This document shows, piece after piece, positions 39,921 through 41,345 of a stretch of 64,000 nt of DNA. The notes beneath the pieces are model-generated. The model did no database searches. It was not told where the DNA came from and was given only the letters and a program-made list of their open reading frames with translations. The position numbers and the translations under genes were made by a program. Source of the stretch: Eledone cirrhosa (lineage: Eukaryota); contig OZ024742.1 of the NCBI GenBank assembly GCA_964016885.1, positions 175,956,001-176,020,000 on the forward strand, in the 5' to 3' direction. How positions within the stretch are numbered: the first letter of the stretch is position 1; each line of letters starts with the position of its first letter.

Positions 39921-41345
39921 ATATTGTATTTATTTATTTACTCTTGGCTCAGCAGATTTGTAATTTTCCCGGTATAAGGTTAGCATTTCTTTGTTTATTT
40001 TTTATATATGAATATTGATTGTTCCTTATATCTCATTCTGTTATTTTGCCCGAGAAAATATCTATGTGTGTCATTAAACGTTGTACACACATAGATATTT
40101 TTTCAATTTCCAATTGAGTACTTAGCACGTGGCCTGAATTCCTTTTAGAGTTCATTGTCATGCGCATGTATTGTTTTTTTTTTGGCGGTAATTTACTTCC
40201 TCATTTTTGAATCAGTTTGAGCATTTCTTTAGAACTGCTGGACTGGCAACCTGACAGATACCTCAGGCACAGAGGATAATGATTATCGCTAAATACTGAT
40301 GTTGGTTAGATTATCAATATTAGTATTATTGGAGCACCCACTGATGAATTATAGGAGCCCACTTGAATATATATCTATTGATGGTATACAATCTCCTACA
40401 TAAATTGGTATAATTTCACCCAAATTGTAGGAATCCTATAATGAAACGAGACGTCCGTCTGGGAAGAGATATATTAGATATGTTTCATATGAAATAATAC
40501 AGCCAATGTTCCACGCAATACTTTAGTTAGCACCCCGAACGCATAGTTGGGAATATAATCACTTATTTCCTAATGTTTGTTGAGTGAGTTGGAATTTGGC
40601 CGGAGTATCGCTAAAAAGCTTTCTCCGATATTGTATTTATTTATTTACTTTTGGCGCAGCAGATTTGAAATTTTCCCGGTATAAGTTTAGGATTTCTTTG
40701 TTTATTTTTCATATATGAATATTGATTGTTTCTTATATCTCATTCTATTATTTTGCCCGAGAAAATATCTGTGTGTGTCATCAAATGTTGTACACACATA
40801 GATATTTTTTCAATTTCCAATTGAGTTCTTAGCACGTGGCCTGAATTCCTTTTAGAGTTCATTGTCATGCGCATGTATTGTCTTTTTTGGCGGTAATTTA
40901 CTTCCTCATTTTTGAATCAGTTTGAGCATTTCTTTAGAAGTGCTGGACTGGCAACCTGACAGATACCTCAGGCACAGAGGATAATGATTATCGCTAAATA
41001 CTGATGTTGGTTAGATTATCAATATTAGTATTATTGGGGCACCCACTGATGAATTATAGGAGCCCACTTGAATAAATATATATTGATGGTATACAAGCTC
41101 CTACATAAATTAGTATAATTTCACCCAAATTGTAGGAATCCTATAATGAAACGAGACGTCCGTCTGGGAAGAGATATATTCGATATGTCTCATATGAAAT
41201 AATACAGCCAATTTTCCACGCAATACTTTTAGTTAGCACCCCGAACGCATAATTGGGAATATAATCACTTATTTCCCAATGTTTGTTGAGTGAGTTGGAA
41301 TTTAGCCGGAGTATCGCTGAAAAGCTTTCTCCGATATTGTATTTA
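39921..41345 (+). repeat. Tandem dimer of a ~707-bp non-coding unit, each copy with a hammerhead
   Basis: Units start at 39921, 40628 and 41334 (atattgtattta); highly similar; flanked by (TA)n. Confidence 0.93.
40337..40463 (+). ncRNA. Type I hammerhead with extended stem II (family E); second copy at 41042-41168
   Basis: ccca CTGATGA attatagga...tcctataat GAA ACG-agacgtc-CGT C tggg. Confidence 0.85.

What the first reader, a model, noticed from the sequence alone, without database searches (positions are those of the whole stretch)
39921..41345. 707-bp tandem dimer with canonical hammerheads carrying a ~95-nt branched stem II
Seen: two units, each with an intact HHR (predicted cuts after C40459 and C41164, 705 nt apart). 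Stem II is closed by 9 bp (attatagga/tcctataat) and holds a nested hairpin (tcctaca...tgtagga); loop III contains the palindrome gacgtc. The substitutions between copies spare the core and the closing stems. The unit is longer than the few-hundred-nt monomers usually described for animal retrozymes and has no ORF. Inference: a second, independent circRNA-forming element or a tandem pLTR.
Basis: partly seen in the sequence, partly recalled or inferred. Interest (0 to 1): 0.7.

Follow-up and report, generated by a model that had tools for sequence, protein, structure and literature searches.

The report
Long-armed hammerhead retrozyme, cut-site footprint
This is one two-unit insertion of an abundant 707-base non-coding jumping repeat of a known kind (an animal retrozyme) whose predicted self-cutting RNA has an unusually large branched arm, and whose broken genomic copies begin at the predicted cut point far more often than chance, which suggests that it does cut in living cells.

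Summary
The dimer and both type I hammerheads are real. It is one insertion of a dispersed non-coding family: 900 exact copies of a core 21-mer, a fixed 3' end behind a hairpin, 5' truncation, (TA)n targets, and no attached ORF. The length is not unusual: published retrozyme units reach 972 bp. The 95-nt stem II is a three-way junction with two hairpins; 13 of 33 pairs change on both sides across sister families. A stem I/stem II pseudoknot is invariant but shows no covariation. In 87 copies chosen by their 3' end, 13 start at or just after the predicted cut against 2.9 expected: indirect evidence of cleavage in vivo. 65 of 87 read through the cut. Likely driver: Hydra-clade Penelope-like elements, intact in this genome. 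Circles are not shown: no RNA run was listed, and this dimer's units differ like unrelated copies. The scan noted similar long-armed hammerheads before on other DNA of this genome. Verdict: new variant of a known kind, moderate interest.

The parts
39921..40627 (+). Retrozyme unit 1 (707 nt, 34% GC, no ORF)
40628..41333 (+). Retrozyme unit 2 (706 nt), 96% identical to unit 1
41334..41345 (+). Fixed 3' tail (first 9-12 nt of a further unit) running into (TA)n; inferred start site of reverse transcription
   Evidence: same 9-nt tail in 72 of 87 copies, one- or two-letter variants in the other 15
40337..40463 (+). Type I hammerhead 1: stem I 40337-40340/40460-40463, core 40341-40347, stem II 40348-40442, GAAA 40443-40446, predicted cut after C40459
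41042..41168 (+). Type I hammerhead 2, predicted cut after C41164
40362..40392 (+). Hairpin IIa of the stem II three-way junction (6 of 9 pairs with changes on both sides in relatives)
40394..40432 (+).
40332..40360 (+). Putative pseudoknot between 40332-40335 and 40357-40360 (one mismatch in copy 1; intact GGGC/GCCC in copy 2 at 41037-41040/41062-41065)
   Evidence: invariant, no covariation; 72 of 93 family-A copies keep both strands
40446..40458 (+). Weak stem III with palindromic loop; predicted self-duplex of -14.7 kcal/mol between two copies
   Evidence: other palindromes in sister families
40601..40627 (+). 3'-terminal hairpin just before the fixed tail (also at the end of unit 2); one G-C to A-U change in sister family B; inferred binding or start signal for the reverse transcriptase
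   Evidence: z -1.8, weak on its own
40052..40104 (+). Long near-perfect hairpin (z -9.4), extended in family B
39670..39920 (.). (TA)n target, 5' side, holding two 23-nt stubs that resemble the element's tail
41340..42008 (.). (TA)n target, 3' side

Best explanation
The two units are one insertion of a non-coding, high-copy repeat family with a type I hammerhead in each unit, most likely a non-LTR retrozyme that is copied into (TA)n microsatellites by the enzymes of Hydra-clade Penelope-like elements. Shown: family size, fixed 3' end, variable 5' truncation, head-to-tail units, (TA)n flanks, conserved branched stem II, excess of 5' ends at the predicted cut. Inferred: transcripts of tandem loci are cut after C40459/C41164, probably by a double hammerhead joined through the palindromic loop III and braced by a pseudoknot; the borrowed reverse transcriptase starts inside the RNA, just 3' of a hairpin about 180 nt downstream of the cut, on a nicked TA repeat. 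A cut linear monomer can give only copies of about 170-180 nt, which is the excess class. Longer copies need an intact junction; my odds are ligated circle 0.45, uncut multimer 0.35, end-to-end template jump 0.2.
For: 900 exact core 21-mers and 1,022 exact 3'-end matches, controls 0. 87 copies picked by the 3' end: same tail in 72, TA 3' flank in 80, TA within 20 nt of the 5' end in 67; 18 reach 700 nt or more, 65 pass the cut. 5' ends at unit positions 537-552: 13 observed, 2.9 expected, Poisson p 1e-5, best-window simulation p 0.001; 1.6 expected after allowing for TA microhomology; two start exactly at the first base after the cut. Core intact in 113 of 125 units covering it. Structure: 91.2% of 1,254 cells paired, 13 of 33 pairs changed on both sides, slid controls 35-48%; stem I turns over CCCA/TGGG, TCCA/TGGA, CCTG/CAGG. 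Neighbouring units in a locus share rare variants 60 times more often than units of different loci (0.159 vs 0.003 per 100 nt, 42 pairs). Intact 667-714 aa ORFs in 8 of 8 PLE loci fetched, with the RW(K/R), DKT, CxCX5C, CxxC and CxH motifs that define Hydra seen in the two proteins printed, ending in (TA)n. Hydra hammerheads lie near the 3' end and often have an unpaired U on each side of stem II, as subfamilies C and D do. Internal start of reverse transcription at a stem-loop on AT-rich nicks is shown in vitro for another PLE (PMC11167929).
Against: No cleavage, RNA or circle was observed. Each copy alone is predicted to fold away from the active form (active fold 4.3 and 11.1 kcal/mol above the minimum; stem III pair probability 0.002-0.013; pseudoknot and dimer not modelled). 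Only 1 of 9 Xenopus retrozyme dimers cleaved in vitro, and a PLE hammerhead was dispensable for insertion in vitro. The pile-up could be a reverse-transcriptase pause at an uncut, folded ribozyme; it rests on one family, 87 copies from one chromosome, and the replicate on family B was not completed. No PLE with matching terminal sequence was found, so the partner is inferred from target and architecture only. The window's own two units differ by 3.8% with 8 differences at family-variable sites and no shared rare variant, unlike a circle read twice. The count of double-changed pairs alone did not beat the shuffle control (65 of 500), and related copies inflate the other measures.
Confidence: 0.8

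Rival explanations
1. The unit is the pseudo-LTR or 3' UTR of a coding Penelope-like element, and the copies seen are its 5'-truncated remains.
For: Hydra PLEs carry a hammerhead near the 3' end and insert in (TA)n; a PLE fragment lies 860 nt upstream in the window; only about 130 of more than 900 family-A loci were read, with 1.5-2 kb of flank.
Against: Wherever a copy is longer than one unit, the sequence upstream is the 3' end of another unit, not an ORF. ORF pieces near 21 of 158 views lie on either side and in either orientation; of the 6 inspected, the closest in-line one is an internal piece (aa 72-147), others are separate elements. The pLTR of intact Hydra loci matches the unit only in short AT-rich words.
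Confidence: 0.07
2. The element moves as described, but the hammerhead does not cut during transposition; it is a structural or protein-binding motif and 5' ends gather there because the reverse transcriptase pauses at the folded RNA.
For: Inactive predicted monomer fold; pair 10.1-11.1 varies A-U, G-C, U-U, C-A across subfamilies; hammerhead cleavage not needed for PLE insertion in vitro; 65 of 87 copies pass the site.
Against: The catalytic core, NUH triplet and palindromic loop III are kept while every helix turns over; the excess ends abruptly at the cut (11 stops at 540-552, 3 at 524-539 with 2.7 expected); no excess of this size at stronger hairpins such as 40052-40104.
Confidence: 0.1
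3. The tandem is a satellite made by local DNA duplication, without an RNA step.
For: Neighbouring units share rare variants, which local duplication would also give.
Against: Copies are dispersed over many chromosomes, mostly under 2 units, with a fixed 3' end and ragged 5' ends; arrays always join at the same junction; the window's units are as divergent as unrelated copies.
Confidence: 0.03

Closest known systems
Metazoan non-LTR retrozymes (Cervera and de la Pena 2020, PMC7229834: passages, first part of Results, Discussion read; Li, Clavereau, Pollet 2026, bioRxiv 10.64898/2026.07.22.740005: parts 1-3 of 5 read)
   Same: Non-coding tandem units, one type I hammerhead per unit, GC below 45%, no LTR, monomers to multimers, co-occurrence with PLEs, length within 51-972 bp and '150 to >1000 nt'.
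   Different: Stem II is a 95-nt three-way junction rather than about 4 bp; strict (TA)n targeting; a conserved 3' hairpin and fixed start site, whereas a review says metazoan retrozymes show no conserved motif pointing to their driver (PMC7761336, passage); circular RNA not shown here.
Hammerheads of Hydra-clade and other Penelope-like elements (Craig et al. 2021, PMC8557442: section 11, passages, supplement part 2 with File S2; Cervera and de la Pena 2014, PMC4209133: passages)
   Same: Type I, short stem I, longer than usual helix II, palindromic loop III for dimer cleavage, site near the 3' end, (TA)n targets.
   Different: No ORF; the longest stem II plus loop in File S2 is about 53 nt and is listed as a single stem with a loop, against 95 nt with two hairpins here.
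Pseudoknotted hammerheads (Perreault et al. 2011, PMC3088659: passages)
   Same: A Watson-Crick pseudoknot replacing the loop-loop contact between stems I and II.
   Different: Here the partner strand lies in the junction of a branched stem II; the pseudoknot is inferred from invariance only.
PAc Poseidon element in vitro (Frangieh et al. 2024, PMC11167929: parts 1-2 of 4 read)
   Same: Reverse transcription starts inside the RNA at a stem-loop downstream of the hammerhead, on AT-rich nicks.
   Different: PAc is autonomous and has two start sites; its authors saw no RNA ends at the cut, whereas here genomic 5' ends gather at it; I saw one fixed 3' end.

Membership tests
Metazoan non-LTR retrozyme | Tandem units each with a type I hammerhead | tested here: met
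   8 of 87 copies span two full cores
Metazoan non-LTR retrozyme | Non-coding, GC below about 45-50%, no LTR structure | tested here: met
   longest ATG ORF 44 aa, GC 34%; copies end in tail plus (TA)n; PBS and PPT were not searched
Metazoan non-LTR retrozyme | Dispersed copies with signs of retrotransposition | tested here: met
   900 and 1,022 exact matches; fixed 3' end, ragged 5' ends
Metazoan non-LTR retrozyme | Self-cleavage of the transcript | tested here: inconclusive
   indirect only: 13 vs 2.9 5' ends at the cut; monomer fold unfavourable
Metazoan non-LTR retrozyme | Unit-length linear and circular RNA in tissues | not testable with these tools
   no RNA holder listed; the circle junction equals the genomic dimer sequence
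Metazoan non-LTR retrozyme | Target-site duplications | not tested
   (TA)n flanks hide them; no systematic search made
Canonical type I hammerhead | Core CUGANGA, GAAA, NUH and three helices | tested here: met
   113 of 125 units intact
Canonical type I hammerhead | G10.1-C11.1 pair and short stem II with loop 1-loop 2 contact | tested here: not met
   A-U in this family, G-C, U-U or C-A in sisters; 95-nt branched stem II
pLTR of an autonomous Penelope-like element | Unit flanks an RT plus GIY-YIG ORF | tested here: not met
   158 locus views screened, 21 with ORF pieces, 6 inspected; sample, not the whole family
Hydra-clade PLE (candidate driver, not the finding itself) | Single ORF, C-terminal GIY-YIG, RWK-like, DKT and CxCX5C motifs, (TA)n targets | tested here: met
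   L280 and L281 proteins against section 11 of PMC8557442; motif reading only, no tree; Pfam gave no useful hit

The most novel reading that the evidence does not exclude
A superfamily of 700-770-nt circular RNA parasites of Hydra-type Penelope-like elements carries a hammerhead with a 95-nt, three-way-junction, pseudoknot-braced stem II that acts as a switch (off as a monomer or circle, on as a dimer or when the borrowed protein binds), and the genome preserves a direct record of both fates of the RNA: cut linear monomers and re-joined circles.
Probability: 0.25. Interest if true: 0.65.

Novelty: new variant of a known kind. Interest (0 to 1): 0.42.

Why it matters
Whether hammerheads in Penelope-like elements and animal retrozymes cut during transposition is open: one in vitro study found cleavage dispensable and no RNA ends at the cut, and 8 of 9 frog retrozymes did not cleave. 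A family with about 1,000 young copies, a fixed start site and an excess of ends at the cut lets this be tested from genome data alone and names a candidate enzyme. The large branched arm widens the known hammerhead folds and would be missed by searches that assume a short stem II. The element class, its length and its likely driver are already in print, and the scan has noted similar motifs in this genome, so the gain is moderate.

Tried and rejected
Rfam scan of the window at E up to 5: no hammerhead family among the 150 rows shown of 188; uninformative. RNA runs: no RNA holder listed. Three contig sets of one sample laid on the stretch showed the family and its sisters but cannot show ends or expression. 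The repeat finder was swamped by (TA)n. Pfam did not recognise the PLE RT. A second pseudoknot candidate (5' UUGGG with CCCAA in loop IIb) was dropped because that strand pairs inside IIb, with one pair changed on both sides in 19 of 38 rows. Length as a novelty was rejected. An excess of copies of exactly one unit, expected if the enzyme stalls after one round of a circle, was not significant (3 observed, 1.1 expected, p 0.096). The pseudoknot could not be tested for covariation: 22 of the 38 aligned rows were found with a pattern that contained it. The replicate of the 5'-end test on family B (605 exact 3'-end matches; loci fetched) was not completed, so the test stands on family A alone. 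Lunse et al. 2017 was not held and is not used. Paper searches for a branched or very long stem II in animal hammerheads and for cephalopod retrozymes listed nothing that describes one in the listings or passages read; bioRxiv supplements were closed and most figures and supplements were not seen, so a published example may exist. The host species was not determined.

Full report
Observation. The dimer is there: 39921-40627 and 40628-41333 plus a 12-nt tail, 96% identical, between two (TA)n tracts. A motif scan of both strands found type I hammerheads at four places in the window; two are these, with cuts predicted after C40459 and C41164, a 95-nt stem II closed by 9 bp, a 4-bp stem I and a weak stem III whose loop holds GACGTC. 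There is no ORF above 44 aa from ATG, also on the circularised unit. Five of the 28 differences between the units lie inside the ribozyme, none in the core or the closing helix.

It is one copy of a large family. The window lies in a 3.0-Gb genome. A core 21-mer occurs 900 times and a 3'-end pattern 1,022 times, reversed controls 0. Copies share a fixed 3' end, a hairpin followed by a 9-12-nt tail and (TA)n, have ragged 5' ends, and hold from a few dozen bases to 3.6 units joined head to tail at one junction. Among 87 loci taken in genome order by the 3'-end pattern (the first 100 matches, tandem views merged), 72 have the same tail, 80 a TA 3' flank, 65 extend past the cut and 18 reach 700 nt or more. 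This is the signature of target-primed reverse transcription starting at a fixed point about 180 nt downstream of the cut.

Not a pLTR, on the sample examined. PLE ORF pieces lay near 21 of 158 locus views (some views overlap), on both sides and strands; the six inspected were an internal ORF piece or separate elements. Eight PLE loci fetched hold ORFs of 667-714 aa, and the two proteins printed show the motifs that define the Hydra clade; their pLTR has its own small hammerhead-like motif and matches the unit only in short AT-rich words. They end in (TA)n as the unit does, which makes them the likely but unproven driver.

Sister families show the fold. A 767-nt family B, 489 of 778 columns identical, has the same architecture; a pattern search and a further DNA search gave subfamilies C-F. 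On 38 aligned rows, 91.2% of cells pair and 13 of 33 pairs change on both sides: 5 in the closing helix, 6 in hairpin IIa, 1 in IIb and 1 in its inner stem; slid controls pair at 35-48%. The number of double-changed pairs alone did not beat shuffles (65 of 500), and the rows are related, so the evidence is the pattern rather than a probability. Stem I turns over between families. Loop III stays palindromic or nearly so with different letters (GACGTC, GATC, GGCC, GATTC), which fits cleavage as a double hammerhead, described for PLE motifs (PMC4209133); the strand self-pairs at -14.7 kcal/mol while the monomer folds away from the active form. A GGGC/GCCC pseudoknot between the stem I strand and the junction, a lead from earlier notes, is invariant but does not covary, and 22 rows were selected on it; family F copies found by DNA similarity mostly keep it. 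Copy 1 in the window has a mismatch in it.

Footprint of cleavage. 13 of the 87 copies begin at unit positions 537-552, where the first base after the cut is 540; 2.9 are expected at a uniform stop rate (p 1e-5; best-window simulation p 0.001), and it is the only strong peak along the unit. Allowing for TA microhomology lowers the expectation to 1.6. Ten are first-round stops (10 of 75 at risk), three second-round (3 of 15). A cut linear monomer can yield only such short copies, so the simplest reading is that part of the template pool is cut there in the germ line. A pause at an uncut ribozyme is the rival. The replicate on family B was not completed.

Circle or multimer. Adjacent units in a locus differ by 2.85% against 4.13% between loci and share rare variants about 60 times more often (42 pairs; removal of overlapping views was imperfect). 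That fits one template read more than once, but also an uncut multimer from a uniform locus or local duplication. The window's dimer is an exception: 3.8% apart, 8 differences at family-variable sites, no shared rare variant, which suggests two different templates or two insertions at one site. No RNA data were available.

Comparison. It works like, and on the features testable here belongs to, the metazoan non-LTR retrozymes (PMC7229834; bioRxiv 10.64898/2026.07.22.740005); cleavage and circular RNA remain untested. Published units run from 51 to 972 bp, so 707 is not new. Internal priming at a stem-loop on AT-rich DNA is shown for a Poseidon PLE (PMC11167929). Pseudoknots between stems I and II are known (PMC3088659). 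The hammerheads listed for Hydra and Chlamys elements have a stem II plus loop of at most about 53 nt. I found no description of a 95-nt branched stem II in an animal retrozyme in the listings and passages. Earlier notes of this scan describe long-armed hammerheads, pseudoknots and cut-site ends for repeats on other DNA of this genome; two may concern the same superfamily, which I did not check.

Verdict. Real, well supported as a retrozyme, a new structural variant of a known kind, with useful indirect evidence for cleavage in vivo. Interest 0.42.

Noticed in passing
window 38525-39669: A separate Penelope-like fragment directly upstream: GIY-YIG ORF piece on the minus strand and a plus-strand terminal repeat with a decayed hammerhead near 39485-39575 (stem II about 55 nt, palindromic loop III TGAGCTCA). 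Several family-A copies sit just after this motif or at this element's 3' end (L012, L017, L030, L065, L079, L167).
   Followed up: partly
window 28529-28578 and 58968-59017: Two further type I hammerheads of another family (core CTGAAGA, 31-nt stem II), each shortly before a (TA)n tract.
   Followed up: no
window 31105-33273: 458-bp units in a head-to-head inverted array with arms 100% complementary, so very young.
   Followed up: no
window 25773-28307 (-): 844-aa open frame with endonuclease and reverse transcriptase domains, a LINE-type element.
   Followed up: no
window 19937-21383 (-): Frameshifted Penelope-like RT and endonuclease; its protein search gave 25,398 candidates in the genome, some with ORFs over 700 aa.
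   Followed up: yes
window 39839-39899: Two 23-nt stubs resembling the element's tail lie in the TA tract just before unit 1; possibly aborted priming events.
   Followed up: no
L280-L287: The intact Hydra-type elements end at two positions about 100 nt apart, and their hammerhead-like motif reads CAGAAGA rather than CTGAAGA in 7 of 8 loci as printed.
   Followed up: no
L192, L201, L203, L221-L249: Pair 10.1-11.1 differs by subfamily (A-U, G-C, U-U, C-A) and the cleavage triplet is GUC, GUA or GUU.
   Followed up: partly
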